Shown here: one piece after another, positions 10,764 through 27,908 of the stretch | How positions within the stretch are numbered: the first letter of the stretch is position 1 | Layout of the letters: the number at the start of each line of letters is the position of its first letter | DNA from: an uncultured Acidobacteriota bacterium | GTDB taxonomy: Bacteria > Acidobacteriota > Thermoanaerobaculia > UBA5066 > Gp7-AA6 | Direction of reading: 5' to 3' | Length of the DNA stretch: 64,000 nt | NCBI GenBank assembly: GCA_963805495.1 | Contig: CAWDUQ010000002.1 | Coordinates: 164,138-228,137 of the forward strand | The notes under the pieces: generated by a model | The model's input: only the letters and a program-made list of their open reading frames with translations | The model's database searches: none | Told to the model about the DNA's origin: nothing | Made by a program: the position numbers and the translations under genes

Positions 10764-13670
10764 TCAGAAGGACACTTTCACCGCCGCCCGGAAGACCCTC
10801 GGGTCCTGGCGGTTGGTGACCTTGCCGTACTCGAGGTTCGTCTGCTCCTGGTTTGGGTCGTAAATCGTGGCCGGGAAGTTTTCCGGAGGAAAGTCAGACC
10901 AGGTGTTGTCGCGCGCGATTGCGATCTGCTGATTGAAGACGTTGAAGAGGTACGCCTGCAGGGTCACGATCGTCGGACCGACGACGATGGGGTAGGACAA
11001 CGAGAGATTCGTTCCCCAGAGGGTTGGCAGCCGCCCGGCCGACCCTCGAGGGACGAGGAAGACGACAGCTCCATACCCCGAGTTGAAGAAGCCCATCTGG
11101 TTGAGTGGGGCGCCGGATTCCACGAACGCCTGAAGCCCGACCGAGAGGTGCCAGGGTGTGACGTAATAGCCGTCAAGCCGGAACCGGTGCGGCCGATCGA
11201 GGTACAGCGTTCCATAGGCGTTGTGCCACATTGCCGGGTAATCGAAGTCCATGTTGACGCTCGGCCAGGTCAGGCCTTCGGCGCCCTGGTTGACACCACC
11301 GTCGTAGTTGCCGCGCAGCGACGAATAGACGTAGCTCGCCTGAAGCCAGAGACTGTTGCCGACGGTCTCGCGGGCCATGACTTCGACGCCACGGTAGATG
11401 CGCCGCGCTTCGGGCGTGGCCGGGCCTGCCGCATCGCACCGATACCAGTCCGGGTCGTCAAACAGTCCGTTGCACGTGGGCGCGTCTCCACTCGCGAACT
11501 GTCCTTTCGAGCCGGGATTGATCAGGGCACATCCAAAGCCGGTCTCCACATAGTCGAAGTCGCAGCGATCCTCGAGCGCGCGGTTGAGACGGCGATACGT
11601 GCCCTTGATGCCGACGGTCAGAGACGGCGCCAGCAGACGCTCGATCCCGACCGTCAGCTCGTCCTGGGATGAAGCCCGGGCGCCTGTATCCACCGGATCG
11701 TCAAAGGCACTGGTTGCCAGAGGGACGATGTCCTCATGCCTCAGCACGTTCGGGTCCTGAACGACGCTGACCGGATCGAAGTTGAACGTCCGCAGCAACG
11801 TGTTGCCGCTGTAGACGAGAGCGGCGGCAACCGTCGGCAGCGCGTAGGAGAATCGCCCGGCAAAGGCAAGGACCTTCGTCTTGCCGTCGTTCCAGGGGTC
11901 CCACGTCACTCCGATGCGCGGCTGCCATTGGTTGTTGAAGCGCAGAACCGTCTGGCCGGTCTGGCTTCGCGTCTCCTCGCCGTCCCAGCGGAGCCCCAGG
12001 TTGATGGTCAGGCCCGGCGCGGCCCTCCAGGAGTCCTGGACGTAGGCTCCGTAGTCGAGGACCCGTGCCCCGACCGGCCTGTAGGGGATTACGGTCGGAT
12101 CGTCCAGGCTCACCGCAAAGAATTGGTGCATGAAGTATGGCTGGCCGTATTCGTTCCGAATCCAGACGAGTTGCCCTCCCGTGGCGGATCCGGCGGCGTC
12201 CGTCTTTCCATACATGTAGTCGCCTCCGGCCTTCACCTCGTGGTTGCCCGCGTAACGGGTGACGTTGGCCGCATACTGCTGGCGGGAGGACTTGCTGTGA
12301 TCACCCGAGCCGCCGATGAAGCCGTACCCTCCGGAAACGGAATGCGGCTCGTGCGGGAAGGGACATCGGTGATCTGGCAAACCACCCACGCAGGTGTCGT
12401 CCGTGTAGCGGATGAGATCGGAGGCGGTCAGTGCATTCTGATCGGCGTGGTGCGCGTACTGCAGGGTCGCGATCGCGTTCGATCCGAAGATCTGCGTCAG
12501 ACGGACGCCGAAGTCCGTACCGCCTTGCGCACGCTCCGAGTACCAGGTCGATGGCTCGAGGCTGACGGGCGGTTCGACGTCGCCCACGCCGAGGCCCTGT
12601 CGGGGGTCGGCGCCCGCGGCGCCGACCGTCGTGGAAGGATCCCCGAAGACCGTGCCGACGACCGAGGTGGAGGACGCGATATTCCAGGTGAGCTTTCCCG
12701 AGTAGAGATTGTCGGCGGAGTCGAAGGGGAACTTCGCATCCGCCGGAACATGGGTCGACGACTGGACCCGGGACAGATCGCCGTCCAGCGTGACCCGGTT
12801 GTAGGCCCCGAAGAACCACAACCGGTCCTTCAGCAAGAATCCGCCGAGGTCCGCGCCGTAGTCGTACCTTCGTCCGTCCGCCACGCGCATCGTGGCGATT
12901 CCCGAGTCGCCGGGCTTGAATTGCTTCTCGGCGGCCGTGCCCGTCGAATCGTAGTAGCCGAAGGCGTCGCCATGGACCTCGTTGCCGCCCGACTTGGTGA
13001 TGACGTTGACGACGCCACCGAGGGCCCGCCCGTACTCGGCCTGGTAGCCGCCGGTCTTGACCTCGACCTCCTGCACGAACTCGTTGTTGATGGCCTTGCC
13101 CTGGACGCCCTTGAAGACGTTGGTCGTGTTGACGCCGTCGATGATCCACTGGTTTTCGGCCGAGGTCGCGCCGTAGATCGACAGGGCGAGGGAGCGCCCC
13201 TCCGTGACGCCCCGATCGGTCGAGACGCCGGGGTTGGACTTGACGATGTCCGCGTAGTTGCGGGCCACCGGCAGGTGGTCGATGACTTCGCTCGTGTAGT
13301 TCGTGCCGGTCGTCGTCGACGACCGGTCGATGGACGGGGCCTCGCCCGACACTATGACCTCCTCGCTGGTCTCCAGCCGGAGTGTGAGGTCGGCCGCCAC
13401 GGACGCGTCGAGTGTGACCGTCAACGTCATGCTGGCCGGCCAGAATCCGGACAGACTCGCCTGGACGCGGTAGTTGCCCGGCGGGATCGCCGGAAACCGG
13501 AAGAGACCATCCGGATCCGTGACGCCGGAGCGCGTGCCCTGGAGGCTCGGACTCGTGATTTCGACGGTCACGCCCGGCAGCGGTGTGCCCGAGGGATCCG
13601 TGATCCGGCCCGAGATCTTGCCGGTCGTCTGACCGCTCGACGTTCCCGTGTCGAATGTCAGAAGACACAC
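10764..13670 (-). CDS. TonB-dependent outer-membrane receptor with an N-terminal carboxypeptidase-regulatory-like (CarboxypepD_reg) domain
   Basis: The sequence GKISGRITDPSGTPLPGVTVEITS...DGLFRFPAIPPGNYRV is a CarboxypepD_reg domain. The plug region is EEVIVSGEAPSIDR...TEGRSLALSIYGAT. A long beta-barrel follows, ending ...AAVKVSF. No canonical start codon precedes the predicted signal peptide. Confidence 0.75.
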   Translation of the reverse strand: MCLLTFDTGTSSGQTTGKISGRITDPSGTPLPGVTVEITSPSLQGTRSGVTDPDGLFRFPAIPPGNYRVQASLSGFWPASMTLTVTLDASVAADLTLRLETSEEVIVSGEAPSIDRSSTTTGTNYTSEVIDHLPVARNYADIVKSNPGVSTDRGVTEGRSLALSIYGATSAENQWIIDGVNTTNVFKGVQGKAINNEFVQEVEVKTGGYQAEYGRALGGVVNVITKSGGNEVHGDAFGYYDSTGTAAEKQFKPGDSGIATMRVADGRRYDYGADLGGFLLKDRLWFFGAYNRVTLDGDLSRVQSSTHVPADAKFPFDSADNLYSGKLTWNIASSTSVVGTVFGDPSTTVGAAGADPRQGLGVGDVEPPVSLEPSTWYSERAQGGTDFGVRLTQIFGSNAIATLQYAHHADQNALTASDLIRYTDDTCVGGLPDHRCPFPHEPHSVSGGYGFIGGSGDHSKSSRQQYAANVTRYAGNHEVKAGGDYMYGKTDAAGSATGGQLVWIRNEYGQPYFMHQFFAVSLDDPTVIPYRPVGARVLDYGAYVQDSWRAAPGLTINLGLRWDGEETRSQTGQTVLRFNNQWQPRIGVTWDPWNDGKTKVLAFAGRFSYALPTVAAALVYSGNTLLRTFNFDPVSVVQDPNVLRHEDIVPLATSAFDDPVDTGARASSQDELTVGIERLLAPSLTVGIKGTYRRLNRALEDRCDFDYVETGFGCALINPGSKGQFASGDAPTCNGLFDDPDWYRCDAAGPATPEARRIYRGVEVMARETVGNSLWLQASYVYSSLRGNYDGGVNQGAEGLTWPSVNMDFDYPAMWHNAYGTLYLDRPHRFRLDGYYVTPWHLSVGLQAFVESGAPLNQMGFFNSGYGAVVFLVPRGSAGRLPTLWGTNLSLSYPIVVGPTIVTLQAYLFNVFNQQIAIARDNTWSDFPPENFPATIYDPNQEQTNLEYGKVTNRQDPRVFRAAVKVSF

Positions 13671-13936
13671 GAGCAGCGCGAATACGCCCGCGCCCCCTCT
13701 CCGTGTCTTCAGAAGGCACTCCCGTCGCTTCCTCGATAGCGGAGCCGGGCAGCGGCGCTGGACGAACCCGCTTCAAGTGAGAACGACTATTGGGCGAGAT
13801 CTTCCGCCCGGTATCGACGAGAAGTCAATCCGGAACCGGACTGGAAGAAACGCGCCGCGGCGTCAGCCCCATGAGACCTCTTGAAGCGGGAAGAGAAGTC
13901 CCACATTAGCGAGCCTGAGCGGGCGTCGACCCGCTC

Positions 13937-16900
13937 CTATGACGCCGACCGATGCTGGAGCTCGAGCCGAATCGGATGATCGGAGTCCGCGAGGGCGAGC
14001 AGCATTGTGAGCTCCGCTTCGACGATCTGTGCATCGTCTTCGCGGCCAACACGCCGATAGAGCGTGGCGAGCTTCAGGCGGTTCCTCAGCCAATAGGCCG
14101 CCGTGTTGCCCCGGATCACGGCATAGCGTCGGTCTGAGGATTCCTCGAGGATTCGGATGGCATGGGGCACGTCACCCCGCTGCGCGAGGGCATCCGCCAG
14201 GGATTCCGCGCCGAGATAAAAGCCGGGCCTCGCTCCGCGGTCGTCGAGCTTGAGTGCCTCTTGGAGCCTCATGGCGTCTTCGAGCTCCAGAACCGCTCCG
14301 GGAAGGTCTTTTCGGGCCAGCGCGAGCTCCCCGCGCACCGTATGGAGCTCCGCCGAGTTCTCCTGCGGCTGGAGGAATCGACGAGCCTCCGATGTCAAAC
14401 CCGCCCGCGCCTGGAGGATGCTGGTCGTTTCCCGCCATGTCAGCGGAAATCCCCCTTCCGATGGCCGAGCTCCCACAAACCGCAGATGGCGGTCGAGGGC
14501 ATGGGTATCACCCTTGTTGAAACTGATCTGGGCGAGCATGTCGTTGCGGGCGACCGGGTCGGCCATCTGCTGGGCCATCCGCGAAGCCTTCTGGAGTTGG
14601 CCCAGCGTCATGTAGCCGAGAGCTGTTGCGAGGCCAAACCGATCCCTGGCAGGGCCGTTGAGCGAGTCCACCTTGGCGGCGACGCGGTCGATGTCGCTCG
14701 ACGCGGCTGCAAGGTCTCCCTTCAGCCAGTCCTCGGTGAAGGGGAGGAGGTCCAACCAGCTGACGAAGTGTGGAAAGTCTTCCGTGACTCCTGGGGTAAC
14801 GAGTTCGGCCGCTCGATCCAGATATGATCCCGCCTGAGCTCGATCGGGCACAAAGACCACGAAGTCATACCCCGCATTCCAGTTCCAGAAAAAGTTCTTC
14901 GGGTGCAAATCCGCGAGCCTGGCCTCCATCGCCGCGCTCTTGCCCAGGGCTCGTGGATCGTGCGCCCAGTCGTAGAGATTGACCAGGTTCCATGCCGCCC
15001 AGAGGTGGTCGGGATAAAGGTCGAGAAGAGCCTCGTACGCGGCGATGGCCTTGTCCTTTTGGCCGAGCAGCGCGTAGTAGCTCCCCCGGATGAAATACCG
15101 CTCCCGCTCGCTCGTCTCGTCCGCCAGTCGAAGCGCCGTTTCCGCGTAGGGCTGGAACTCTTCGAGAGGCTTGCCCTGATTGCGAAGCGTCCATGCGAGA
15201 TGGATCCAGGCCGAGGCGAACGAGGGGTCTTCGGCGACGGCCTGTCGCAGAAGCTCCTCCGCGACTGGCTGGGAGTCGCGGAGATGCCCGGGCTGCATCA
15301 AGAGGTCTGCCCGGGAGTAGAGCTGTAGCGCTCTCAGGTTGGTCGTGGTGACTCTGGCCAGTCCGGTCGCGTCGGGGTCGCCGCGGTCGGCAGTGTCACC
15401 AAGGGCCACGCGGAGACGATCCGAAATGCGCCCGATGGCTGCGAGAGTGCCGTCCGCCCCAGCGCTCTCCTCCCGGAACCCGGCCAGAGTCGATCCCTGC
15501 TTCGGGTCCACGAGTTCCACGCTCAAGAGATAGTTGGATCCGAGCTTCTCGACCCGGCCGGTCAGCAAAGCCCGAATGCCGCCGTCCCGGAGGCAGACCT
15601 CGCGCGCCAGCCCGGCATCGATCGAAGAGTCCGGAGGCTTCCGCATCAGCCGCAGCGCGTCCGCGACGCGTTCCCTCGGGACGACGTTGACGTGGCGCGA
15701 GTTGGAGAGTTCCAGTCCGAGTGCGTAGTCGAGCGTTCCGTCGAAGAGACTGTCCCCGGTGCGGTTCTCGAAACCAGCGACCAGGATCCAGTCGCGGGGC
15801 TGGAAGGGAAGGGCCTGAAGTGTCCCCGCGGAGGGTGAAGAACCGGTCCGCGAGAGCCAGGCGACGGCGCCGACCACGAGAATCGCCAGCCCGAAGCCGG
15901 CGGCAATCAACGCGGCCCGGCGAGGCTTCTCTGTTCTGCGCTGGAGGTTCTCGAGCGCCGCGAGCATGCCTCGCGCAGACTCGAATCGCTTCGGCGAATC
16001 ATGCTCGATCGCCCGACCGATCACGGCGGCGAGGGCCTTTTTCGCCGCCGGAGCCCCTTCCGCAAGATCCAACCGCTCTCCGCGCGCGTGTGCCTCGGCG
16101 ACTTCCTTGACGGTCGCTCCGCGAACCGGATACGCGCCGGTGAGGAGATGGAAAAGCAGGACGCCCGTGCTGTAGATGTCGGTCCGGACCGTTGCCTGAG
16201 CCCCCTGGAAGATTTCCGGAGCGAGATACAAGGGCGTTCCTGCCGCGTCCAGGCTCGAGCCCGGAGTCTCTTCCAGCTCCCGTCCCGTCCCGAAGTCCAT
16301 CAGAACGAGACGGCCGTCTCCCGTCTGCATGAGGTTCTGCGCCTTGATGTCCCGATGGAGCAGGCCCGCATCGTGAACCGCCGAGAGTGCCCGGCAGACT
16401 TCGATGCCGATTCGCGTCACTTCGCGGTCGTCGAATTTCCCTCGTTCTCCGAGAACCTGTTCCAGGTTCCGACCGTGAATGAACTCCATCCAGAGGCCAA
16501 CCCGGCCTTCGATCTCGTCGGCGTCATAAACGGTGACGACGTTCGGATGGCGAACCCGCGCAAGCAGGCGCGCTTCCCTGAGTACCGTGGCGCCCTCCGG
16601 TTGCTCCTTGCCCCCGTGCAGCAGCTTGACCGCCACTTCGCGGTCGAGTTTCGGATCCCGGGCCCGGTAGACTTCGCCAAAGGACCCTCTTCCGATGCGT
16701 TCGAGGATCTCCAGCCTGCCCCAGTGTTCCAGCTTTTCCTCAGGAATCGTGCACGAGTCCGATAGAAGGGGATCGCGGGCAAGACTTCGGTGAAGCTCTG
16801 CGATCCCCGCGAGGACTCTCAGCTGCTGTAGAGCCTCGCGGTCCCTCTCGTCTGCAGAGGATTCCGCAAGGGCCCAGTCGACGGATTGACCATCGAGGAC

Positions 16901-16999
16901 GGCTCCCGCGAACTCGTCCAGCGGCCGATCCTCATCGTCCACGGGCCATCTCCTCGGCCAGACGAACCAGTGCGCGCTTCGTCGCCTTGTGCGCGGCAC
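13937..16999 (-). CDS. Transmembrane Ser/Thr protein kinase with a large TPR-rich extracytoplasmic sensor domain
   Basis: Hanks kinase motifs: GRGSFGEVYRA (P-loop), VAVK, HRDIKAQNLM, DFGTG, GTPLYLAPE. A single TM helix (ALIAAGFGLAILVVGAVAWL). About 600 aa of TPR-like repeats. The N-terminus overlaps the sigma gene's end; an alternative GTG start near 16942 would reduce the overlap to about 11 nt. Confidence 0.8.
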   Translation of the reverse strand: MPRTRRRSAHWFVWPRRWPVDDEDRPLDEFAGAVLDGQSVDWALAESSADERDREALQQLRVLAGIAELHRSLARDPLLSDSCTIPEEKLEHWGRLEILERIGRGSFGEVYRARDPKLDREVAVKLLHGGKEQPEGATVLREARLLARVRHPNVVTVYDADEIEGRVGLWMEFIHGRNLEQVLGERGKFDDREVTRIGIEVCRALSAVHDAGLLHRDIKAQNLMQTGDGRLVLMDFGTGRELEETPGSSLDAAGTPLYLAPEIFQGAQATVRTDIYSTGVLLFHLLTGAYPVRGATVKEVAEAHARGERLDLAEGAPAAKKALAAVIGRAIEHDSPKRFESARGMLAALENLQRRTEKPRRAALIAAGFGLAILVVGAVAWLSRTGSSPSAGTLQALPFQPRDWILVAGFENRTGDSLFDGTLDYALGLELSNSRHVNVVPRERVADALRLMRKPPDSSIDAGLAREVCLRDGGIRALLTGRVEKLGSNYLLSVELVDPKQGSTLAGFREESAGADGTLAAIGRISDRLRVALGDTADRGDPDATGLARVTTTNLRALQLYSRADLLMQPGHLRDSQPVAEELLRQAVAEDPSFASAWIHLAWTLRNQGKPLEEFQPYAETALRLADETSERERYFIRGSYYALLGQKDKAIAAYEALLDLYPDHLWAAWNLVNLYDWAHDPRALGKSAAMEARLADLHPKNFFWNWNAGYDFVVFVPDRAQAGSYLDRAAELVTPGVTEDFPHFVSWLDLLPFTEDWLKGDLAAASSDIDRVAAKVDSLNGPARDRFGLATALGYMTLGQLQKASRMAQQMADPVARNDMLAQISFNKGDTHALDRHLRFVGARPSEGGFPLTWRETTSILQARAGLTSEARRFLQPQENSAELHTVRGELALARKDLPGAVLELEDAMRLQEALKLDDRGARPGFYLGAESLADALAQRGDVPHAIRILEESSDRRYAVIRGNTAAYWLRNRLKLATLYRRVGREDDAQIVEAELTMLLALADSDHPIRLELQHRSAS

Positions 17000-17519
17000 C
17001 CGAGGTCGGCTTCCCGAGAAGGCGGGCGAGCTCCTCGTAGGAATACCCGAGCTCGACGCGGAGGATGATCGACTCGCGTTCTACTGGCCGCAGCCGCCCG
17101 AGAGCGTCTTCGTACCGTTCGATTTCTTCCATGCCGACAGCCTTCTCGAGAGGCGACCGCGCCGGGTCGACCTCGGTCCCTTCAAGCTCTCCGTGCGCCG
17201 GCCGCCTTGCCACCCGGCGGATCTCGTCGCGTATCCGGTTCATCACCGCCTGACGGAGGTAGGCCTGCAGGGCACCCTCCCGCTCGGGTGTGAAGACGTC
17301 CATCCTGTTAAACGTCTGAAGCAGGGTTTCCTGGACAAGATCCTGAGTGTCGGCCAGATCGCGCGCCCATTTGGGCAGCCGGCCCCTTGCCCAGCGCTGC
17401 AGCCGGGGCAGGTGGCGCGCGAAGAGCAGTTCGAGCGCCGGCTTGTCTCCCTCGCGAAACCGCTGGATGAGGCGGAACGTGGATTCGGCCTCGCCGCCGG
17501 GAGCGGGTTCGGGGGACAC
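16932..17519 (-). CDS. ECF (extracytoplasmic function) RNA polymerase sigma-70 factor
   Basis: Region 2 (LVQETLLQTFNRMDVF...YLRQAVMNRIRDEIRR) and region 4 (ESIILRVELGYSYEELARLLGKPTSGAAHKATKRALVRL). GTG start. No anti-sigma factor gene adjacent; a Ser/Thr kinase takes its place. Confidence 0.8.
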   Translation of the reverse strand: MSPEPAPGGEAESTFRLIQRFREGDKPALELLFARHLPRLQRWARGRLPKWARDLADTQDLVQETLLQTFNRMDVFTPEREGALQAYLRQAVMNRIRDEIRRVARRPAHGELEGTEVDPARSPLEKAVGMEEIERYEDALGRLRPVERESIILRVELGYSYEELARLLGKPTSGAAHKATKRALVRLAEEMARGR

Positions 17520-17990
17520 GGTTAGCGCCTAGTCTATTCCGCAGGCCACCCACCCACGGGTTTCCGCGGATTTTGAGCGATTTCGCGTCGAGAAAGCCTG
17601 CCGCGGTCGTTACTTGAGAAAAGGGCATGGTTGTGTACGCGACGCCGTCCAAGTCAGAGACCTGTTGCGAAACGCGGCTGGTCGAGAATCTGACACCTTC
17701 GTCGCTCGCCTGGCGCACGTCGCTCGCGTTTTTGCCGACAAGCGCTGCAGCGACTGGCTGCGGGAACTCGCGGCGAGAAACCTCCAGATCGTGACGATGC
17801 CGTCAGGCGGGGCGGGTATGGGGAGAGCCGGACGGCTTCTTGCCCTGCTCCGACAAAACATGCAAAAGGACCGAGGTGCCGAACCCTACCTACCCAGTCT
17901 AGCGAGGGTGCCCAGCCTCTGGATCGCCAGATCGCCTGCGTCACCAGAATCGCCAAGCCTACCGATGCGCCGACTGCCCGAGGAGGACAC

Positions 17991-20900
17991 ATGAGGGCTT
18001 CCCTTCGTTCCGGCCTCCATCTCGCGATTCTTCTCGGCATCGCGACCCACGTCGGTCTGCGAGGTCAGCTCGCCGCTTCGGACATCTGGGTCGGCAACGG
18101 GCCCGAGGGCGGGATCGTCAACGCGCTGGTCGTCGACCCATCTGACTCGAGCACGCTCTACGCCGGAACGACCTGGGGTGGAGTCTTCAAGAGTGTCGAC
18201 AGCGGCGCGAGCTGGAGTCCATCAAACCTCGGTCTCACGGGTAGGTCGGTCATCGCGCTCGCGATCGATCCCAGCAATCCGGCCACGATCTTCGCGGGGA
18301 CGATGCCGCAGGGGGAAGGCCAGGTCGGGCTGTTCAAGAGCACCGACGCTGGCGGCTCGTGGGCGCCATCCGCCGCCGGGATGATCTATTTCTTTGGATA
18401 CTACGCTGCGGTGGAGAACATCGAGGTCGACCCTCTATCGTCCTCCATCGTCTACGCGGGAACCCAGGCCGGCGCCTACAAGAGCATCGACGGAGGGGCT
18501 ACCTGGGAGAGTATCGGTGACTTCAACACGGGCTGTTTTGTGGCGATTGATCCTTCGACGCCCACAACCCTCTACGTCGGTGCAGGAGGCGCGGTCTACC
18601 GGAGCACGGACTCCGGGGCTAACTGGTTGCCGACCGGCGAGTTCAGTGGGGCGACGGTTCTCGGGATCATCGTCGATCCTACCGATAGCCAAGTGGTCTA
18701 CACGGTTGACAGCAACGGCGTCTCAAAGAGCATGGACAGCGGATCCTCATGGCAGAGCCTCCCGACAGGTCTCACGTATCCAAGCCTCTGGGAGCTCGCC
18801 ATGGATCCGCTCGACCACAACGTTCTCTACGTCGGAGCGCGATCAGGGTATCTCGACGAGTACGGTGTTCTAAAGACCACGGATGGGGGCGCGAGCTGGA
18901 ACCCGGTCAATTTCGGCATCGAGGATCAATTCAGTGTGGGGGCCATCGCAATCAGCCCTTCGACGCGCGGCATCGTCTACGCGGGCGGCTGGTCGTCGAA
19001 CTACAACTCGAACTCGCGCTCGTCTCCAGGAGGCGTCTACAAGACCACGAACGGCGCGGCTGTCTGGGCTCCTGCAAACAGTGGCCTGGCAAATTCCTTC
19101 GTCCACAGCGTCACGATCGATCCCGTCAATCCCGATATCCTGTATGCGGGGCTTTCGAGCTACGTCTCTCCATCCACAACCAACTTTGGCGTCTCGCGAA
19201 GCCTCGACGGTGGCGCCTCCTGGGGGCTTGCGAGTGAAGGATTGCTCGACCCCTATTCCGCCAAGACATCGCCTGTCTACGACGTCGTCGTCGATCCGAC
19301 CAACTCGAGCAGGGTCTACGCTGCTGGAGTCGGCGGCGTGTTTCGGTCGCTTGACGGCGGCGACTCCTGGGACCTGTTCGGCACTGGAATTAGCCCGACT
19401 CAGAACGGTGTCGAAATCGCGATCGACCCGGCCACGCCTTCCACGCTCTATCTCGCCACGTCCAACGGCTACGGGTTGTACAGGAGCACGGGTGCCGGCG
19501 GCGTCTGGTCGCCGATAGGCTCGGCCTACACATTTGCTCTCGATCCAGCCTCGCCCAACGTCCTCTACGGCGCAGAGATCGGTGGAATCGTCCGGAGCTC
19601 CGATGGAGGCGACACCTGGAGCACCCCGGTACCAGTCTGCTACAACGTCTACGCCCTCGCTGTTGCTGCCAATTCCTCCGCCGTCTACGCCGGTTGCTAC
19701 CTGGACGGAGTCTGGAAGTCTACTGACGACGGCGCGAACTGGTCCCACACGGATGAGGGCCTGGGCAATTGGTCGGTAGTTTCCCTCTTGGCGGACCCGG
19801 TCGATCCAAACACGATCTACGCCGGCGCAAATCAGAATCAGTTCGACACCGGCGCCGTCTACCGCTCGACCGATGCCGGGGTTCATTGGACGACCGTCGG
19901 CCAGGGGTTCCCGCCTCTGTTTGCCTACGGGCTGGCCCTTTCGCCGACAGGCAAGCTCTACGCAGCCACGGAGGGAGCGGGCGTCCTTGTCGTCGATGTC
20001 TGCGCCCCCGTCGGGCCTCCGACAGCCGGCAACGACGGACCTATTTTCTGTGAGGGGCAGACCATCAACCTGACCGCCTCGACGATAACCGGAGCAACCT
20101 ATGGGTGGACGGGACCCGGCGGCTTCACATCTAGTCTCCAGAACCCGACCATCTCCAACGCAACCCTCGCCGCCTCAGGGACGTATTCTGTCGTCGCGAC
20201 TGTGGACAACTGTGACACGTCGCCGGCGGACACAACGGTCGCCCTCAACGAGGCTCCGATCGCGACCGCCACGGGGTCGGCGACGATCACGGTCGGCCAG
20301 TCGACGCCTCTCTCGGGGTCGGGAGGTATTTCGTGCGTGTGGTCGCCGCCGACCGGCCTCGACGACGCCAATTCGTGCTCGCCGAACGCGAGCCCTTCGG
20401 TGTCCACTGTCTACTCGCTCGTCGTGACCGGTGCGAACGGCTGTGGCTCGACCAACGGAGCGGACGCCACAGTCACTGTAACCGGGGTAGGCATCCCACC
20501 TTCTGAGCGGGCTGCCCTGATTGCGCTGTACAACAGCACGAATGGTCCCGGCTGGACAAACAACACGAACTGGCTCGGGGCGCCGGGGACCGAATGCACC
20601 TGGTCTGGGGTGACTTGCGGTGCCAGTGGCACTACAGTCACCCAACTCATACTCTCGAGCAGGAATCTCACCGGCACGCTGCCTCCGGAGCTGGGCCAGC
20701 TCACCAACTTGCAGTTCCTTCGCTTCGGTCTTAATCACTTGAGTGGGGGGCTTCCACCAGAGCTCGGGAGCCTCGCCAACCTTGTTGTTCTCGATTTGCA
20801 ACTGAATCAGCAGCTCACCGGTCCGATGCCTCCCGAGCTGGCGTCCCTCACTAGCCTTCAGACCCTCATCGTCGACTACAACCAACTGTCTGGAAGTATC

Positions 20901-23900
20901 CCGGCGTGGCTGAGCAACCTGCCCTCCCTCAAGGTCCTTAGTCTCTTGGCGAACCGCTTCACTGGGTCGATACCTCCCGAGCTGGGGAACAGCCAGACGC
21001 TTCAGGAGCTGAGCCTCGGGTCGAACCAGCTCACCGGGCCAATCCCGGCTGAGTTGGGCAACCTTCAGAGCCTCACCTATCTCATCCTCGGACCGAATCA
21101 ACTGACAGGCGGAATTCCACCGGAGCTCGGCAACCTCGGCCAACTCAGAACGCTCAACCTGGCCTACAATCCGCTGGGCGGTGTCGTACCCGCCGCCCTT
21201 GGGAACCTCTCACAGCTCACATCGCTCTACCTCCAGGCCGACGGACTCACGGGAACGATTCCCGCCGAGCTCGGCAATCTGTCGACGCTGGCTAATCTCT
21301 ACCTGAATGGCAACCTGCTGAGCGGGCCGATTCCGCCAGAACTGGGGAACCTTGCCGCCGCCCGCTTCGTTGACCTCGAAGGCAATCAGCTCTCGGGAGC
21401 GATACCAATCCAACTCGGAGGCGCTTCTCTTCTGCTCGAGTTGTACCTCCAGGGAAATCGCCTGGAGGGCACGATCCCAGCCGAGATCGGCGACCTGACG
21501 GCTCTTCACATACTGAAACTCAACTCGAACAAGCTCGCCGGGCCGGTTCCCGGCAGCCTGTCCAACCTCACACAGCTACAGTCAGGCGGCCTGGATCTCC
21601 GGTGGAACGCTCTCGACACATCGGACTCGGCGCTTCTGGCGTTTCTAAATTCCAGGCAGATCGGCGGTGACTGGGAGGGCACCCAAACCGTGGCGCCTAC
21701 AAGCCCGAGCCTCGAAAGCGCGACTCCAAATGGCGTAAGCGTCGGCTGGACACCGATTCTCTACGCCGGAGACCCGGGCTTCTATCAAGTCATCTATGGA
21801 ACGACGACCGGCGGCCCTTACACGCCCTTTGCGACGACGACGACCGACAAATCAGCGTCCGGGCTTGCCGTGAACGGGCTCACACCCGGCACGGCCTACT
21901 ACTTCGTCGTGCAGACGACGACGCTGCCCCACTCGAATAACCAGAACACGGTAGCCAGCAACCCGAGTGTCGAGATCTCCGGGTCGACACTGAGCGGCAC
22001 CCCTACCCCCACAACGACGCCAACGGCAACCAGCACAGCGACATCCACCCCCACACCTACCGCTACCGGAACACCAACCTCAACCAGCACGCCCACAAAC
22101 ACTCCGACGCCCACTCAAACGCCGACGGCCACTCCGACACCGACGCTCACGCCTACCCAGACCCCGACGCAGACGAGCACGCCCACCCCGGTTCCGACCC
22201 CTACGACCACCAGTACCCCTCCGAGCACGCCAACGAGCACTGCGACTCAAACGCCGACCCCCGCTCCGACGGTAACGCCGCCTCCAACCCTGACCCCGAC
22301 GAAAACGTCAACGAACGTCGCTACGATCACGTCAACGGCGACCAGCACACCACCGCCTGCACCCACAAACACGCCGACGCCAACCCAGACGCCGGCACCG
22401 CTTCCGTGCGGCCCGACGCCCGACGAGTTTCCAATCCCAACGGCTGTCAGTGGGCCTTTCTTGATTGCTGCCGGATCCGATGGCGCCATTTGGTTCAGTG
22501 AGAATGGCGCCGACAAAATCGGCCGAATCACTACAGAGGGTGTCATTGCTGAATTCGCGCTTCCAATAGGTAGTGTACCTACCGGCATAACCGCTGGGCC
22601 GGATGGCAACCTCTGGTTCACGGAAACTGGCGCCAACAAGATTGGTCAGATCACTACCGGAGGCGTCATCACGGAATTCGCTGTCCCGACCGTCTCTTTC
22701 CCTTTCGACATCACCGCGGGACCGGATGGCGCTCTCTGGTTCACCGAAAGGAATCCAGCGCAGATCGGCCGGATATCGACATCTGGCGCTATCACCGAGT
22801 TTGCCCTCTCCGATCCCAGCAGCTTTCCATCCGGCATCACTGCGGGACCTGACGACGCCCTCTGGTTCACAGAATCCGCTGGTATTGGCAAGATCGGCCG
22901 AATCACTACGGCCGGCGATATTACTGAATTCGCGATCCCCACGGCCAACAGCTTTCCCTTTGACATCGTCGCGGGACCCGACGGGGCCCTGTGGTTCACG
23001 AGCAACGAGAAGATAGGCCGAATCACTGTCGGTGGCGTGGTCACGGAATTCGGGCTGCCCTCTCCCGGCAGTTACGGCATTGCAGTCGGGGTCGATGGCG
23101 CCCTCTGGTTCACGAAGCCAAACACGAATAGCATCGGGCGGATCACCATTGCGGGTGTCATCACGTTTTTCGCCCTCCCGCCCCCGGTCGGCAGCTTTCC
23201 GCTAGGCATTGTCGCGGGACCCGACGGCGCCTTTTGGTTTACCGAGTCTCAAGGCAACAAGATTGGCCGGATCTGCACGGCGGTGACGCCGAGTCCGACC
23301 AATACACCGACGCCGACGGTCATGCCGTCTGACACACCGACGAGTACTCCGAGCTTTACGCCTACCGTTACGCCAACCAACACGCCGACACAGACTGTCA
23401 CGGCCACACCGAGTCCGTCGCCAACCCCCACGCCAACGCCAACGGCGGTGCCGACGAACACGCCAACGAACGTCGCTACGATCACGCCAACGGCGACCAG
23501 CACACCACCGCCTGCACCCACAAACACGCCGACGCCAACCCAGACGCCGGCACCGCTTCCGTGCGGCCCGACGCCCGACGACTTTCCGGTCCCAACACCC
23601 TACAGCCAGGCTTTCGGTATCGCCGCCACGCCCGATGGTCCTCTCTGGTTCACGGAACTGAGCGGCAACAAGATCGGTCAAATCACCACGGCCGGGGTCA
23701 TCACCGAGTTCCCTATCCCTACGGCCGACAGTCAGCCTACTGGCATAGCGATGGGTTCGGACGGCGCTTTCTGGTTCACCGATCGAACGTCAACCAGGTC
23801 GGCCGAATCACTACGGCTGGCACAATTACCGAGTTTCCAATTCCCACGGCGAACAGTCGGCCTATAGGCATTACGCCGGGGCCGGACGGCGCCCTCTGGT

Positions 23901-24700
23901 TCACAGAGACCAACGGCAACCAGATCGGCCGGATCACCACGGCCGGGGCCATCACGGAGTTCCCAATCCCCACGGTCAGCAGTCGGCCTGTCGGGATCGC
24001 TGCGGGGGTTGACGATGCCCTCTGGTTCACCGAGACCAACGGCAACCAGATCGGTCGAATAGCAACGGACGGCGCTATCACAGAGTTCACAATCCCTACG
24101 GCGGGCGGCCCCCCCTATGCCATCGCGCCAGGGCCCGACGGCGCGCTGTGGTTTACCAAGCCGAACGCCGATCAGATTGGCCGAATAACGACGGCCGGCG
24201 TCATTACTGAGTTTTCCGTTCCCACCGACGGTCACCCCATCGGCATCACCGCCGGCGCGGACGGCGCTCTCTGGTTCGCCGAGAACGTCGTGAACCGAGT
24301 CGGCCGGATAACAACGACCGGCGCCATCACTGAGTATGACCTTACACCTTCGGGTCCGCCCGACCACATTGCCGCTGGATCGGATGGAGCCCTTTGGTTC
24401 ACGCGCGACATCGGCGACGCCATCGGGCGCATCTGCACGACTGCGGCACCGAACCCGACGAACACACCGACACCGACGATCACGTCGTCCAACACACCGA
24501 CGAAGAGTCCTAGCAACACGCCTACCGTTACGCCAACCAACACGCCGACACAAGCTGTCACGGCCACACCGAGTCCGTCGCCAACCCCAACGCCAACGGC
24601 GGTGCTGACCAATACCCCGAAACCGACGAAGACGCCGAACCCGACAAAGACGCCGAAGCCTACGAAGACGCCGAAGCCTAGGAAGACGCCGAAGCCATGA
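17991..24700 (+). CDS. Giant secreted mosaic surface protein, about 2,230 aa if one frameshift near 23,786 is bridged. Domains: BNR/Asp-box beta-propeller, Ig-like, about 13 plant-type LRRs, FN3, Thr/Pro linkers, two Vgb (streptogramin-lyase)-like beta-propellers, and a Lys/Pro/Thr-rich tail.
   Basis: Strong RBS GAGGAGG 7 nt upstream of the ATG, then a signal peptide. About 13 S-x-D-x-G-x-x-W repeats ([18 protein letters not shown] and so on). 24-residue LRRs (LxxLxxLxLxxNxLSGxIPxELGNL). An FN3-like domain. TPTPT linkers. WFTE...IGRIT..G.ITEF repeats characteristic of the virginiamycin B lyase fold, present in two copies. The ORF-track pieces are 17991..23867 and 23561..24700. Confidence 0.7.
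22309..22426. repeat. 118-bp direct repeat R1, copy 1 (linker preceding the first Vgb-like propeller)
   Basis: About 99% identical to 23464..23581, with one mismatch. Encodes ...[37 protein letters not shown]. Confidence 0.85.
23358..23455. repeat. About 95-bp direct repeat R2, copy 1 (linker following propeller 1). Copy 2 lies at 24518..24608.
   Basis: The string acgcctaccgttacgccaaccaacacgccgacaca[g/a][a/g]ctgtcacggccacaccgagtccgtcgccaacccc... occurs twice. Copy 1 carries a 6-nt insertion. Confidence 0.8.
23464..23581. repeat. 118-bp direct repeat R1, copy 2 (linker preceding the second Vgb-like propeller)
   Basis: See copy 1; seen directly in the sequence. Confidence 0.85.
24518..24608. 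repeat. About 91-bp direct repeat R2, copy 2 (linker following propeller 2)
   Basis: Near-identical to 23358..23455. Confidence 0.8.
24623..24694. repeat. Four 18-bp in-frame tandem repeats (cc[g/t]a[c/g][g/a]aagacgccgaa[c/g]) encoding (P)TKTPKP units at the C-terminus of the giant protein
   Basis: Direct reading of 24623-24694. Encodes [26 protein letters not shown]. Confidence 0.8.
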
Positions 24701-24830
24701 GAGGACCTACAAACCTAGCGCTTCGCCGCCGGCGCGAACGGGAGCCACAACGGAGGCGATGCGCGTTTGCTGGACCGGTTCGTACCCGCATGTCGACTTC
24801 GGGAGGACCTCCTTTGTCACCGAGAGATGA

Positions 24831-27800
24831 ATGGACGGCTCCCTGGCGGATTCCCCCGCAATCACAGCGCTTGCGAAGGGAGGCTCGCATGAATCCGGAT
24901 TCCGGACTTCAGATCAAGGGACAACTCCGGCTATCACGAGAGTTCTTGTCTGCTTTTTTCTCGGCGTCCTCTTGCTTCGACTTGTTGCCGGCGCTCAGAT
25001 CATCAGCGACTCTCGAGTCGCCGGTCACGCTGGCGCATTTAGAGAGCGCATTGGCGACATACGCATGCCTTTTGTCTCGAATGCCGGGCAGAGCGACCCT
25101 GCGGTTGCGTTCTACGCTCGGACCTTCGCCGGCACCGTCTTTGTCACTCGAAGGGGCGAGATCGTCTATTCGCTTCCACGGGCGGTCAGAGACGCCGGAG
25201 CGACTCAAAAACCCCGAGGACCCGCTCTCGAGGCGGATGCCGCGGGCTGGAGCCTGAGCGAGACGCCTGTCGCCGGGAAGGGTCGAGTTACCCCAGGCCA
25301 AAGGGCACCCGCCCTTGTCAGCTACTTCACTGGCTCTGATCCTGCTCGGTGGCGAACGGGCGTTCGCACATACGAGACCGTAGTGCTTGGCGAGGTCTGG
25401 CCGGGCGTGAGCCTGTCCCTGCGCGCCAGCGGTAACAATGTGGAAAAGGTCTTCACGATACGGCCCGGAGCGGACTTCTCTCGCATCCGGATGCGCGTCG
25501 CCGGCACACGGTCGCTCCGAATCGACGACGACGGTGCACTCATTGCGGCAACGGGGCTGGGAGAGGTGACGTTTACGCGCCCTCTTGGCTACCAGGAGCG
25601 GGACGGCGCGCGCCTGCCCGTCAAGGTGGGATACCGCGCGCAAGGTCGGCAATACGGCTTTTCAATCGGCGAACATGACCCTGCGCTGCCAGTAGTCATC
25701 GACCCCCTGTTGCAGGCGACATATTTGGGTGGCAGTGGCATGGAAGGTCAGTACTCCGTCGCTCTCGCTATCCACCCGACGACGGCGAAGTGTTCCTCGC
25801 TGGGTACACGTTCTCCGCCGACTTTCCTGGAACTGCCGGAGGGGCACAGCCGGCGAGCGGAGGCAGTATCGACTGTTTTGCGCGCGCCTGGACGCTGCTC
25901 TCACCACGCTGAGCCAGGCGACCTATTTCGGCGGCAGCTCCTTCGACCTCGCCTTTAGTCTCGCCGTCGAGCCAACGTCCGGCGACGTACTCATGGCCGG
26001 ATAACATCCTCCACCAACCTTCCGGGCACTACGGGTGGGGCCCAGCCGGTGAACGCGGGCAATCAGGACGCTTTCATCGCGCGCTTTGACGCTACTCTTG
26101 ACACGCTGTACCAGGCGGTCCTATCTCGGAGGCAGCTCCGACGAGTTGGCCTATTTCCTTGCTCTCGCGATTCACCCGACCTCAGGCGAAGTTCTCGTCT
26201 CCGGGTCAACGGACTCGTTCAATTTTCCCGGTACAGTCGGTGGGGCGCAACCCTCGAAAGGCACCTTCGGTGATGCTTTTGTTGCACGCTTGAACGCCGG
26301 CCTCACTACGCTCAACCAAGCGACCTATCTCGGCGGCAATGGTGACGATCTTGGCGGCGCCATGGCCATCGACCCTGGGTCTGACGATGTGCTCGTAGCC
26401 GGGAGCACGAACTCCACCGATTTTCCCGGGATAGCCGGAGGAGCCCAGGCTTCGAACGCGGTGACGGGGACGCTTTCATCGCGCGCTTGAACTTCAGTCT
26501 CACAGCGCTGAACCAAGCGACGTATCTCGGTGGTGGGGACACGAAAGCTGGCCGCGCTTGCCATCCATTCGAGCTCCGGGGACGTGTACATCTCCGGGGC
26601 CACGCTCTCCACTGACTTCCCGGGCACCGCGGGCGGCGCGCAGCCGGCCCATGGCGGCGGTTTCTACGACGCCTTTGTGGCGCGCTTGAATGGAAGCCTA
26701 ACGATACTGAACCAGGCGACCTATCTTGGTGGTGGTCGCCGAGACTCTTTTCTGCGCTCGCTATTCATCCGGCCTGGGGAGAAGTGTTCATTGCGGGCCA
26801 GACGTTTTCAGCCAATTTTCCCGGCACTGCCGGGGGAGCCCAGCCGGCATTCGGCGGTGGTAGTGGTGACGTCTTCGTCGGGCGGCTAAGCGTCAGTCTC
26901 ACGACGCTGAACCAGGCGACTTTTCTCGGAGGCAGCGGGGGCGACGCGTTCAAGGTGTCGCCATCGATCCGACTTCCGGCGACGTGTTTGTTGCCGGTCA
27001 GACGACTTCAACCGACTTTCCCGGCACCGTCGGTGGTGCCCAGCCAGCGAACGCTGGCGGTAGCGGCGACACGTTCATTGCGCGCCTGACGCCTGACCTG
27101 GCCGGCATTCCCACGATCGCACCCTCTTCAGGGCCCGCGTCGGGTGGGACCGTGGTCACGATTACTGGTAGCGGGTTTCAGGTCGGCGCCACCGTCACGA
27201 TCGGGAATGCACCGGCAACGGGAGTTTCCGTCGTCAACTCTCACCAGATCACCGCTACCACTCCGGCACTTGCTGCTGGCTCCCTGAACGACGTTGTCGT
27301 CACCAATCCGGGATCCTTGCCGATGTCGCCGCAGCTCGTGCTCGTCGGGGGGTTTTTCGCGGACTTTCCGACGTACCTCTCCCAGACCCGTTCCATACCT
27401 TCATCGAGAAGGTCTTCCGCAAGGGCATCACCGCCGGCTGTGGCGGGGGCAACTATTGCCGCGACAACTCCGTCACGCGGGCGCAGATGGCGGTGTTCCT
27501 GCTGAAGGCGGAGCATGGCGCCATTTTCGACCCACCTGATTGCGCCGGCATTTTTCCGCGATGTTCCCTGTACTCCTGGTATGGGCTTTTCGGACTGGAT
27601 CGAGCAGCTCGCGGCCGAGGGAATCACGGGTGGCTGCGGAGGTGGTAACTACTGCCCCAACGACCCCGTTACGCGGCAGCAGATGGCGGTCTTTCTCCTG
27701 AAGACCAAACATGGCCCGGGCTACGCGCCGCCGTCCTGCGCGGAATCTTCGGCGACGTTCCCTGCCCGAGCACGTTTGCGATTGGATCGAGCAGCCCGCT

Positions 27801-27908
27801 GCCGAAAACATCACCGGAGGTTGCGGCGGCGGGAACTACTGTCCTTCGTACCCGAACACGCGGGGGCAGATGGCGGTGTTTCTCGTGAAGACGTTCAATC
27901 TGCAATGA
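24831..27908 (+). pseudogene. SBBP (seven-bladed beta-propeller) repeat protein with an N-terminal DUF7948-like domain and C-terminal SLH-like domains. It is broken into at least 8 frame segments: either a decayed pseudogene or a region dense in sequencing errors.
   Basis: The first segment has a signal/TM stretch, then ...RMPFVSNAGQSDPAVAFYARTFAGTVFVTRRGEIVYSLP (DUF7948-like). The unit LNQATYLGGsg.D.a.aiAid..g.v.vAG.T.S.dFPGTaGGAQP..gG..DaFvArL recurs in ORF fragments 25729-26004, 26086-26490, 26530-26889, 26784-27089 and 26984-27505. The 3' end encodes two GCGGGNYCP-type SLH-like modules (27391-27908), again split across three frames. Confidence 0.55.

What the first reader, a model, noticed from the sequence alone, without database searches (positions are those of the whole stretch)
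13937..17990. ECF sigma factor paired with a transmembrane Ser/Thr kinase instead of an anti-sigma factor
The ECF sigma gene (16932-17519) is followed with overlap by a 1,000-aa Hanks-type kinase. The kinase has a cytoplasmic kinase domain, one TM helix and a roughly 600-aa TPR-rich outside domain. No zinc-finger or RskA-type anti-sigma gene is present. This arrangement matches the recently described class of ECF sigma factors controlled by phosphorylation rather than sequestration (ECF43-like sigma/STK pairs). The pair is transcribed divergently from the giant surface-protein gene across a 470-bp intergenic region. The surface-protein island is therefore an obvious candidate regulon.
Basis: partly seen in the sequence, partly recalled or inferred. 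Interest (0 to 1): 0.65.

Follow-up and report, generated by a model that had tools for sequence, protein, structure and literature searches.

The report
ECF sigma factor with partner kinase
An acidobacterial stress-type sigma factor is encoded together with a membrane-spanning Ser/Thr kinase that almost certainly controls it, a known kind of switch, but it lacks the ECF43 hallmark and nothing links it to the neighbouring giant surface-protein gene.

Summary
An ECF sigma gene (16932-17519, minus strand) overlaps by 14 nt a 1002-aa Hanks kinase gene (13937-16945). The kinase has a kinase domain, one TM helix and a 637-aa TolB-like/TPR outside domain. No recognisable anti-sigma gene is present.

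The pairing is real and dedicated. 46 of 49 relatives have the kinase directly downstream. Four of five kinases sampled independently have the sigma directly upstream. Natural sigma-kinase fusion proteins exist.

It is not ECF43-like in the defining respect. Region 2.2 reads D57-T58-Q59-D60, so the acidic residues are kept and Gln sits at the ECF43 phospho-Thr position. T58 (98%), S/T14 and S122 are conserved candidate acceptors.

All partner kinases carry a conserved N-terminal three-helix module of unknown role.

The regulon idea is not supported. A conserved ECF-type promoter motif (TAACGA-N11-TTTCTCGAC, 17587-17612) occurs once in 64 kb. The giant gene lies in a 13.6-kb variable island that the closest relative replaces with other DNA.

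The conserved neighbours are a downstream TonB-receptor-like gene and a divergent secreted protein of unknown family (~31146-31952).

Verdict: a new member of the kinase-linked ECF class, of moderate interest.

The parts
16932..17519 (-). ECF sigma factor gene, 195 aa. Region 2.2 motif is D57-T58-Q59-D60-LVQE (T58 codon 17346-17348). Also a conserved N-terminal E-S13-T14 (17478-17483) and S122-P-L-E (17154-17156).
13937..16945 (-). Transmembrane Hanks-type Ser/Thr kinase gene, 1002 aa, GTG start. It overlaps the sigma stop codon by 14 nt.
16775..16945 (-). Kinase N-terminal three-helix module (aa 1-57; helices 9-17, 24-30, 33-57). Family consensus is LxxLAxAxxDGxxVDW...LRxLAxIAxLHR. A disordered linker follows (aa 58-74).
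   Evidence: No Pfam or PDB sequence match.
15926..16723 (-). Catalytic kinase domain (aa 75-340) with all Hanks motifs intact.
15851..15916 (-). Single transmembrane helix (aa 344-365).
   Evidence: hydropathy.
13940..15850 (-). Extracytoplasmic sensor (aa 366-1002): a TolB-like N-terminal part followed by TPR repeats.
   Evidence: The same sensor occurs at 50-63% identity fused to an N-terminal HTH instead of a kinase.
17587..17612 (-). ECF-type promoter-like motif TAACGACCGCGGCAGGCTTTCTCGAC, 68-93 nt upstream of the sigma start. Presumed autoregulated promoter.
   Evidence: The same motif lies upstream of the sigma gene in seven close relatives, L001-L006 and L008. A relaxed form appears in about 15 more distant loci. 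It is the only site in the window.
17531..17536 (-). TAGACT, a conserved TAGAAT-like (-10-like) element 12 nt before the sigma start codon.
   Evidence: Read by eye; function inferred.
10764..13709 (-). TonB-dependent-receptor-like outer-membrane protein gene (CarboxypepD_reg + Plug + beta-barrel), directly downstream of the kinase. Probable CTG start near 13709.
31146..31952 (+). Conserved divergent partner gene: a secreted protein of about 260 aa from no known family. In the window it carries two apparent frameshifts.
17991..30968 (+). Variable surface-protein island: the giant BNR/LRR/Vgb-lyase protein, then Vgb-lyase, DUF7948, SBBP, TIG and SLH ORFs. It lies between the sigma promoter region and the conserved divergent gene. 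Listed as context, not shown to belong to the system.

Best explanation
This is a dedicated two-protein envelope-signalling switch. An ECF sigma factor is regulated by the transmembrane Hanks-type Ser/Thr kinase encoded immediately downstream and translationally coupled to it, not by an anti-sigma factor.

Proposed sequence:
1. The periplasmic TolB-like/TPR domain senses an unknown envelope or extracellular cue (inferred).
2. The cytoplasmic kinase domain, which has intact catalytic residues, becomes active (inferred).
3. The sigma is engaged, possibly through the kinase's conserved N-terminal three-helix module, and phosphorylated on a conserved Ser/Thr. Candidates are T58 in region 2.2, S13/T14 in the N-terminal tail, and S122 at the linker/region 4 border (inferred; site unknown).
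4. This changes the sigma's use by RNA polymerase.
5. The sigma transcribes from its own promoter (TAACGA-N11-TTTCTCGAC). That promoter drives sigma, kinase and probably the downstream TonB-receptor-like gene (inferred from motif conservation and gene order).

Because the acidic residues of region 2.2 are retained, the ECF43 logic does not apply as such. In ECF43, phosphate supplies a missing negative charge.
For: - **Pairing, sigma first:** 46 of 49 relatives at 42-97% sigma identity have the kinase directly downstream on the same strand. This includes one Planctomycetota MAG.
- **Pairing, kinase first:** 4 of 5 kinases at 37-40% identity have a 195-205-aa ECF sigma gene directly upstream, overlapping the kinase start.
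- **Fusions:** three mutually diverged sigma-module-kinase polypeptides exist, P0301, P0326 and P0387. P0326 is identical in three separate records (NCBI, ENA, JGI).
- **Coupling:** 14-nt overlap with a GAGGAG Shine-Dalgarno.
- **Active kinase:** K107, E124, HRD, N204, DFG and T237 are invariant in 60 kinases. The fold resembles PknB.
- **No anti-sigma domain detectable**.
- **Conserved Ser/Thr** in an exhaustive, unbiased sample of 150 family representatives: T58 148/151, position 14 T107/S32, S122 141.
- **Promoter motif** conserved upstream of the sigma gene in otherwise unalignable DNA.
- **Precedent:** direct sigma phosphorylation by the adjacent kinase is shown for EcfP/PknT and EcfK/PknS (PMC8999054, PMC13147305).
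Against: - No phosphorylation data exist for this family.
- Region 2.2 keeps D57 and D60 and has Gln at the ECF43 phospho-Thr position, so the sigma may be intrinsically active. Phosphorylation could be modulatory, or even inhibitory.
- T58 is not specific to kinase-linked sigmas. Unrelated ECFs with no kinase within 6 kb also carry DTQDLVQE (L057-L080).
- The T58 invariance in the fetched loci is circular, because DTQDLVQE was one of the search patterns. Only searches are unbiased.
- The promoter assignment rests on conservation alone.
- A 228-nt gap separates the kinase from the TonB-receptor-like gene in the window.
Confidence: 0.6

Rival explanations
1. Hybrid tether model. The kinase's N-terminal three-helix module is a short anti-sigma-like or docking domain that holds the sigma at the membrane. 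Kinase activation, by phosphorylating the sigma or the module, releases or activates it. Regulation would then be partly classical sequestration built into the kinase.
For: - The module is present in essentially all sigma-linked kinases, from 37% to 98% identity, including a Planctomycetota one.
- AF2 predicts it confidently (pLDDT about 91) as a separate unit on a disordered linker.
- In the natural fusions it sits between sigma region 4 and the kinase domain, again at pLDDT 92-94.
- The ECF43 partner PknS also has an uncharacterised N-terminal helical domain of 81 aa (PMC13147305).
- Short two-helix anti-sigma domains exist (CnrY, NepR; my own knowledge). The best PDB sequence match of this sigma is CnrH from the entry 4cxf.
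Against: - The module has no sequence similarity to any Pfam anti-sigma family or any PDB chain.
- At about 50 aa it is shorter than a class I anti-sigma domain.
- No complex model could be evaluated.
- One fusion, P0269, lacks the module.
Confidence: 0.25
2. True ECF43-type mechanism. The sigma is intrinsically inactive because region 2.2 lacks negative charge, and a phospho-Thr restores binding to the beta-prime clamp helices.
For: The gene arrangement and kinase architecture match ECF43 pairs (PMC13147305). A nearly invariant Thr lies inside the DAED-equivalent motif.
Against: - The motif is D-T-Q-D here and [DE]-T-[DEQ]-D in 150 representatives: acidic at position 1 in 138/151 and at position 4 in 150/151.
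- The residue aligned with the ECF43 phospho-Thr is Gln, Asp or Glu.
- The best NCBIfam hit is the planctomycete subfamily TIGR02984, below its cut-off.
Confidence: 0.08
3. The sigma/kinase pair controls the divergent giant surface-protein gene and the surface-protein island.
For: - The arrangement is divergent across 471 bp.
- Vgb-lyase-type propeller genes recur in the divergent unit of L002 and L007, and BNR/sortilin-like genes lie near the pair in L016, L024 and L043.
- All island genes are co-directional with the conserved divergent gene at 31146-31952.
Against: - No second copy of the conserved promoter motif exists anywhere in the window. The best other PWM score is 12.2 bits against 27.4, inside the shuffle range.
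- No mirrored motif occurs in loci where the divergent gene is adjacent.
- L001, at 92% nucleotide identity, carries a different 4.5-kb segment instead of the island.
- Such surface proteins are very common in Acidobacteriota (my own knowledge).
Confidence: 0.15
4. The kinase and the sigma are merely co-expressed. The kinase phosphorylates other substrates, and the sigma is controlled only through its own transcription.
For: The sigma keeps an apparently competent region 2.2. Two promoter-like elements lie upstream of it. Hanks kinases often have many substrates (PMC13147305, introduction).
Against: The pairing is near-universal, with start/stop overlap over a wide divergence range, and fusion into one polypeptide recurs. 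Both point to a direct physical and functional partnership.
Confidence: 0.07

Closest known systems
ECF43 sigma/kinase pairs: EcfP-PknT (Vibrio parahaemolyticus) and EcfK-PknS (Xanthomonas citri)
   Same: An ECF sigma is encoded next to a transmembrane Hanks kinase with no anti-sigma gene. Like PknS, the kinase has an N-terminal helical region, a kinase domain, a TM segment and a large extracytoplasmic domain. Direct sigma phosphorylation is demonstrated for these pairs (PMC13147305, PMC8999054).
   Different: ECF43 lacks the acidic DAED motif (QTTA/STTA) and is phosphorylated at its third position. Here the motif is DTQD, with Gln at that position and Thr at the second. The phylum and the sensor domain differ.
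Kinase-associated ECF groups that keep a DAED-like motif (ECF59, ECF61, ECF62, ECF217, ECF283; Casas-Pastor 2021)
   Same: The kinase is in the conserved neighbourhood, there is no anti-sigma factor, the acidic region 2.2 is retained and Ser/Thr lies in or near it (PMC7826278, PMC8999054). The best NCBIfam match of this sigma is a planctomycete-specific subfamily, TIGR02984.
   Different: Those groups are described from Planctomycetes and Actinobacteria, and none is experimentally characterised. This family is overwhelmingly from Acidobacteriota. TIGR02984 scores 77 bits against a cut-off of 184. Group assignment could not be tested, because no ECF Hub models were available.
FecI/FecR/FecA-type cell-surface signalling
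   Same: The gene trio has the same outline: an ECF sigma, a single-pass inner-membrane transducer with a large periplasmic domain, and a TonB-dependent-receptor-like outer-membrane protein.
   Different: The transducer is a kinase, not a FecR anti-sigma factor. The receptor has a CarboxypepD_reg N-terminus and no detected signalling (STN) domain. Among the fetched loci the receptor gene follows the kinase directly in only eight. None of the five kinase-first places has one directly downstream; L086 has a convergent one.
M. tuberculosis PknB acting on SigH/RshA and SigE/RseA
   Same: A Hanks kinase feeds into ECF sigma control by phosphorylation (PMC8999054, PMC13147305).
   Different: In those systems a zinc anti-sigma factor is the main regulator, and the kinase is neither dedicated nor adjacent. 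No anti-sigma factor is detectable here.

Membership tests
ECF (group 4) sigma-70 factors | Only regions 2 and 4 are present, about 200 aa in total | tested here: met
   Sigma70_r2 aa 32-105 and Sigma70_r4_2 aa 134-186. TIGR02937 scores 72.7 bits, above its cut-off of 42.9.
ECF43 | A Hanks-type kinase gene co-occurs next to the sigma gene | tested here: met
ECF43 | Region 2.2 DAED/DxxD is replaced by uncharged residues (QTTA/STTA consensus), with the phospho-acceptor Thr at the third position | tested here: not met
   The motif is D57-T58-Q59-D60 by alignment to CnrH, AlgU and others. Family profile: position 57 D/E 138/151, position 59 D/E/Q 106/151, D60 150/151.
ECF43 | Assignment by the ECF classification 2.0 group HMMs | not testable with these tools
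   ECF Hub models are not available, and the paper's supplements are not held.
Kinase-associated ECF groups retaining DAED (ECF59/61/62/217/283) | Kinase in the conserved context, no anti-sigma factor, an acidic 2.2 motif with Ser/Thr in or around it | tested here: met
   The feature list is taken from PMC8999054 and PMC7826278.
Kinase-associated ECF groups retaining DAED (ECF59/61/62/217/283) | Sequence membership in one of these groups | tested here: inconclusive
   The only proxy is TIGR02984 (planctomycete subfamily 1), the best hit at 77.2 bits against a cut-off of 183.75.
Hanks-type (eukaryote-like) Ser/Thr kinases | Gly-rich loop, VAxK lysine, alphaC Glu, HRD, Asn, DFG and APE motifs, and the kinase fold | tested here: met
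Classical ECF / anti-sigma pair (ZAS, RskA, FecR, class I anti-sigma domain) | An anti-sigma domain encoded next to the sigma gene or fused to a neighbour | tested here: not met
   No Pfam anti-sigma family hits any neighbouring ORF, or kinase aa 1-75 at E<=1. No PDB anti-sigma chain matches. A divergent short anti-sigma domain cannot be excluded by sequence alone.
FecIRA-type cell-surface signalling | A TonB-dependent transducer with an N-terminal signalling domain, plus a FecR-type anti-sigma factor | tested here: not met
   The receptor has CarboxypepD_reg + Plug + barrel only, and there is no FecR.

The most novel reading that the evidence does not exclude
The kinase's conserved N-terminal three-helix module is a built-in sigma-docking or anti-sigma-like domain. 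This family would then work by a hybrid of tethering and phosphorylation, distinct from ECF43. The natural sigma-module-kinase fusions would be its one-polypeptide version. The conserved divergent secreted protein of unknown family would be a further component, either a ligand or a target.
Probability: 0.25. Interest if true: 0.7.

Novelty: new member of a known kind. Interest (0 to 1): 0.4.

Why it matters
Only ECF43 has an experimentally established mechanism among kinase-controlled ECF sigma factors. Reviews state explicitly that the kinase-linked groups retaining the acidic region 2.2 may work differently.

This locus belongs to a very large, mostly acidobacterial family: 442 clusters at 50% identity with E<1e-30. 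The family offers clear handles for that open question:
- a near-invariant Thr inside an intact DxxD motif;
- a conserved S/T in the N-terminal tail;
- a conserved kinase N-terminal module;
- natural sigma-kinase fusions;
- a sharp candidate promoter.

The practical consequence for the window itself is modest. It is a regulatory pair of a known class with an unknown signal and an unknown regulon.

Tried and rejected
1. **Database search with the 84-aa kinase N-terminus.** It found nothing significant in a 5.8-billion-sequence database, so a capped search was wasted.
3. **Mixed MSAs for a natural fusion.** MAFFT repeatedly put kinase N-termini onto the sigma region. A reduced set finally aligned (A3) and gave a confident model. 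No coordinates or PAE are returned, so the sigma-module contact question stayed open.
4. **Foldseek of the fusion model.** It returned only kinases.
5. **T58 invariance in the fetched loci.** It looked striking, but it is circular: DTQDLVQE was a search pattern, and unrelated kinase-less ECFs carry the same motif. I replaced this evidence with the exhaustive search.
6. **First promoter pattern.** It had the wrong spacer (12 instead of 11) and missed the site.
7. **Generic bipartite motif enumeration over distant loci.** It did not rise above shuffles.
8. **ECF group supplements of Casas-Pastor 2021.** They are not held.
9. **Look-up of P0001's contig.** No exact product was on record.
10. **Rfam, repeats and terminator/promoter consensus scans of the region.** Nothing informative.
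11. **My interim conclusion that the giant gene is simply unrelated.** I softened it after finding the conserved divergent gene beyond the island and the recurring propeller genes.

Full report
**What is there**

On the minus strand, ORF 16932-17519 encodes a 195-aa protein. It has Sigma70_r2 (aa 32-105), Sigma70_r4_2 (aa 134-186) and Sigma70_ECF matches. It passes the generic ECF model TIGR02937. Its best specific NCBIfam hit is the planctomycete subfamily TIGR02984, at 77 bits against a cut-off of 184.

The next ORF is the kinase. Its longest frame is 13937-16999. The start is GTG 16945, preceded by GAGGAG at 7 nt, which gives the same N-terminus (MDDEDRPLDEF) as the annotated orthologue P0121. 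The two genes therefore overlap by 14 nt.

The 1002-aa kinase has four parts:
- an N-terminal module, aa 1-57;
- a canonical Hanks kinase domain, aa 75-340, with every catalytic motif (Pkinase 1.7e-46; best PDB sequence matches StkP and PknB);
- one hydrophobic helix, aa 344-365;
- a 637-aa outside part, with TPR hits at aa 545-660 and, from the TM helix on (aa 342-654), a match to the non-cyclase part of TIGR04510.

No anti-sigma family matches any neighbouring ORF, the small ORFs of the 471-bp intergenic region, or the kinase N-terminus, even at E<=1.

**Source organism**

The closest public loci are Acidobacteriota MAGs. L001 has 97% sigma identity and 92% nucleotide identity. L002 is labelled Thermoanaerobaculia, and more distant loci are Vicinamibacteria/Vicinamibacterales.

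**Is the pairing meaningful?**

Yes.
- Of 49 loci whose sigma is 42-97% identical, 45 have a kinase domain directly downstream on the same strand, typically about 210 nt after the sigma stop. That gap is the module plus linker.
- A 46th locus (L005) ends inside the module.
- The three exceptions (L026, L047, L049) have a kinase nearby in another orientation.
- One paired locus is a Planctomycetota MAG (L048).

Those loci were found through the sigma, so I also sampled from the kinase side. Five module-bearing kinases at 37-40% identity to ours were looked up. Four have a 195-205-aa ECF sigma gene directly upstream, overlapping the kinase start. The fifth has one 2.8 kb away.

An exhaustive HMMER search of 1.84 billion representatives gave 442 family clusters at E<1e-30. 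Among the best 150 are proteins in which sigma, module and kinase form one polypeptide: P0301, P0326 and P0387. They are mutually diverged and share a common C-terminal soluble domain. A fourth, P0269, lacks the module. P0326 is encoded identically in three separate records (NCBI, ENA, JGI), so the fusion is not a read error.

Conserved adjacency, translational coupling and Rosetta-stone fusions together make a direct sigma-kinase partnership very likely.

**Is it ECF43-like?**

Only in outline. In ECF43 the DAED/DxxD motif of region 2.2, which contacts beta-prime, is replaced by uncharged residues (QTTA, or STTA in EcfP). The third-position Thr is phosphorylated to supply the charge (PMC13147305, PMC8999054).

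Alignment to solved ECF sigmas places the equivalent motif here at D57-T58-Q59-D60, followed by LVQE. Across the 150 representatives:

| Position | Residues |
|---|---|
| 57 | D 114, E 24 |
| 58 | T 148 of 151 |
| 59 | D 61, E 23, Q 22 |
| 60 | D 150 |

So the family keeps, and often strengthens, the acidic patch. The residue at the ECF43 phospho-site is never Thr-dominated. This matches what the review says of the other kinase-linked groups (ECF59/61/62/217/283): DAED-like motif retained, Ser/Thr nearby, mechanism unknown. I could not run the ECF group HMMs.

**Candidate acceptors**

Conserved hydroxyl residues in the unbiased sample are:
- T58;
- position 14 (T 107, S 32), within an N-terminal E-S-T motif;
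- S122 (141), in SPLE at the linker/region 4 border;
- position 172 (S 82, T 45).

Two cautions apply. First, the T58 invariance I initially saw in the fetched loci is circular, because DTQDLVQE was one of the search peptides. Second, unrelated ECFs with no kinase within 6 kb (L057-L080) carry the same DTQDLVQE. T58 is therefore not diagnostic of kinase control.

**The kinase N-terminal module**

All sigma-linked kinases begin with the same pattern, LxxLAxAxxDGxxVDW...LRxLAxIAxLHR. A variable linker and then WGxL...GxGxFG follow.

AF2 with a 60-sequence MSA gave pLDDT 87 overall. It predicts three helices (9-17, 24-30, 33-57) at pLDDT about 91, a disordered linker (58-72), and then the kinase.

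The module matches no Pfam family and no PDB chain. The ECF43 kinase PknS likewise has an uncharacterised 81-aa N-terminal helical region.

Whether this module docks or sequesters the sigma is the main open point. A model of the natural fusion P0326 was confident per domain (pLDDT 86, module 92-94, pTM 0.61), but the tool returns no coordinates or PAE. Its fold search returned only kinases.

**The sensor domain**

The C-terminal sensor of the kinase varies among relatives. Only L001, L004, L008 and L016 match it.

The same sensor (TM plus TolB-like plus TPR) occurs at 50-63% identity in proteins of about 770 aa. Their N-terminus is a helix-turn-helix (GRLDSWKEIASYLRRSVRSVQRWE) instead of a kinase. 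One sensor is thus wired to two different outputs.

**Promoter and regulon**

A 26-nt element, TAACGA-N11-TTTCT(C/G)GAC, lies 68-93 nt upstream of the sigma start (17587-17612). The same element lies upstream of the sigma gene in seven of the close relatives (L001-L006, L008), with a near-variant in L007. This holds even though the surrounding DNA is not alignable between the window and L001.

About 15 more distant loci carry a relaxed form, AACG-N~14-ATCCGGAC/ATCGAAC. It has the shape of an ECF promoter, with AAC at -35. I take it as the autoregulated promoter; this is an inference.

A second conserved element, TAGAAT-like (TAGACT at 17531-17536), lies just before the start codon.

In the 64-kb window the motif occurs exactly once:
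- a pattern search allowing 3 mismatches gave only chance-level extras;
- a PWM gave 27.4 bits for the sigma site and 12.2 for the runner-up, inside the shuffle range of 8.5-18.7.

Nothing lies upstream of the giant gene, the TonB-receptor-like gene or the divergent conserved gene.

**Conserved neighbours**

Directly downstream of the kinase is a TonB-dependent-receptor-like gene (10764 to about 13709) with CarboxypepD_reg, Plug and barrel domains.
- It is conserved at 54-83% identity in the same position in L001, L002, L003, L006 and L007. The gap can be as small as about 20 nt (L002).
- Weaker relatives sit downstream in L009, L011 and L015.
- Its signal peptide lies upstream of the first canonical start codon, implying a CTG start.

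Upstream and divergent, many loci encode a secreted protein of about 250 aa from no known family, with the C-terminal motif GDFYMRFHIHVTRP / EGFYTMPFxITV.
- It was found in 15 of the sigma-first loci plus the window, and in all three kinase-first loci that returned DNA.
- It is always on the opposite strand.

In the window this gene lies at about 31146-31952, with two apparent frameshifts. It is separated from the sigma by the 13.6-kb island of plus-strand surface-protein genes.

**The island**

The window matches L001 across 10938-17501 and 31257-32775. Between those blocks L001 has a different 4.5-kb segment.

The stretch from 10 to 32 kb, which includes the sigma-kinase-receptor cluster, has lower GC (62-66% against about 70%).

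The giant gene is therefore a variable insertion into an ancestral divergent pair, not a conserved partner. Against a total dismissal:
- Vgb-lyase-type propeller genes occur in the divergent unit in L002 and L007;
- BNR/sortilin-like genes lie near the pair in L016, L024 and L043.

**Verdict**

This is a dedicated sigma/kinase switch, but not of the ECF43 mechanism. The surface-protein regulon is unsupported.

The locus is best filed as a new member of the kinase-associated, DAED-retaining ECF class. The features noted above could make that class experimentally tractable.

Noticed in passing
window ~31146-31952 (+); L001 825-1745, L007 5021-5794, L009 5026-5841, L014 5112-5849 and others: A secreted protein of about 250 aa from no known family (no Pfam or PDB match) is conserved divergently upstream of the sigma gene. 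It was found in 15 sigma-first loci plus the window, and in all 3 kinase-first loci with DNA. In the window it shows two apparent frameshifts (near 31245 and 31360).
   Followed up: partly
window 17520-31146 versus L001 1519-6002: The surface-protein island (giant BNR/LRR/Vgb-lyase gene, then Vgb-lyase, DUF7948, SBBP, TIG and SLH ORFs) is replaced by a different 4.5-kb segment in the closest relative. ORFs between 24.7 and 28.4 kb look fragmented, either by assembly frameshifts or by decay. The whole 10-32 kb stretch has lower GC (62-66% against about 70%).
   Followed up: partly
P0301, P0326, P0387 (L081-L083 6001-8034); P0269: Natural single-polypeptide fusions of this ECF sigma, the three-helix module and the kinase domain, with a shared soluble C-terminal domain and no TM segment noticed on reading the sequences. 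P0326 is identical in three records (NCBI, ENA, JGI). I found no report of such fusions in the papers searched.
   Followed up: partly
P0135, P0136, P0144, P0152, P0155 and about 50 more hits: Proteins of about 770 aa have the same TM + TolB-like + TPR sensor (50-63% identity) but an N-terminal helix-turn-helix (GRLDSWKEIASYLRRSVRSVQRWE) in place of the kinase. They look like membrane-bound one-component regulators sharing the sensor.
   Followed up: no
window 13670-13720 (-): The TonB-receptor-like gene has no canonical start codon before its signal peptide (KTRRGGAGVFALLVCLL). A CTG with GGGAG 6 nt upstream is the likely start. L001 has the identical arrangement.
   Followed up: partly
window 17531-17536 (-) and equivalent sites in L001-L009, L014, L016-L018, L024: A conserved TAGAAT/TAAGAT-like element lies 12-40 nt before the sigma start codon, at variable distance from the ECF-type motif. 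It may be a housekeeping -10 box giving a near-leaderless transcript.
   Followed up: no
window 9664-10305 (-) and 32024-36031 (-): The lower-GC block (sigma, kinase, receptor gene and island) is flanked by an XdhC gene on one side. On the other side lie FAD-binding/CO-dehydrogenase-flavoprotein and [2Fe-2S] subunit genes. The block may therefore interrupt a molybdenum-hydroxylase cluster.
   Followed up: no
L081-L083 1-1755; L086 6550-9744; L010, L012, L014, L017, L019, L022, L029: CarboxypepD_reg-type TonB-receptor-like genes recur within 6 kb of sigma-kinase pairs in various orientations (about 15 of 48 loci). This may be only a slight enrichment over their high background in Acidobacteriota.
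   Followed up: partly
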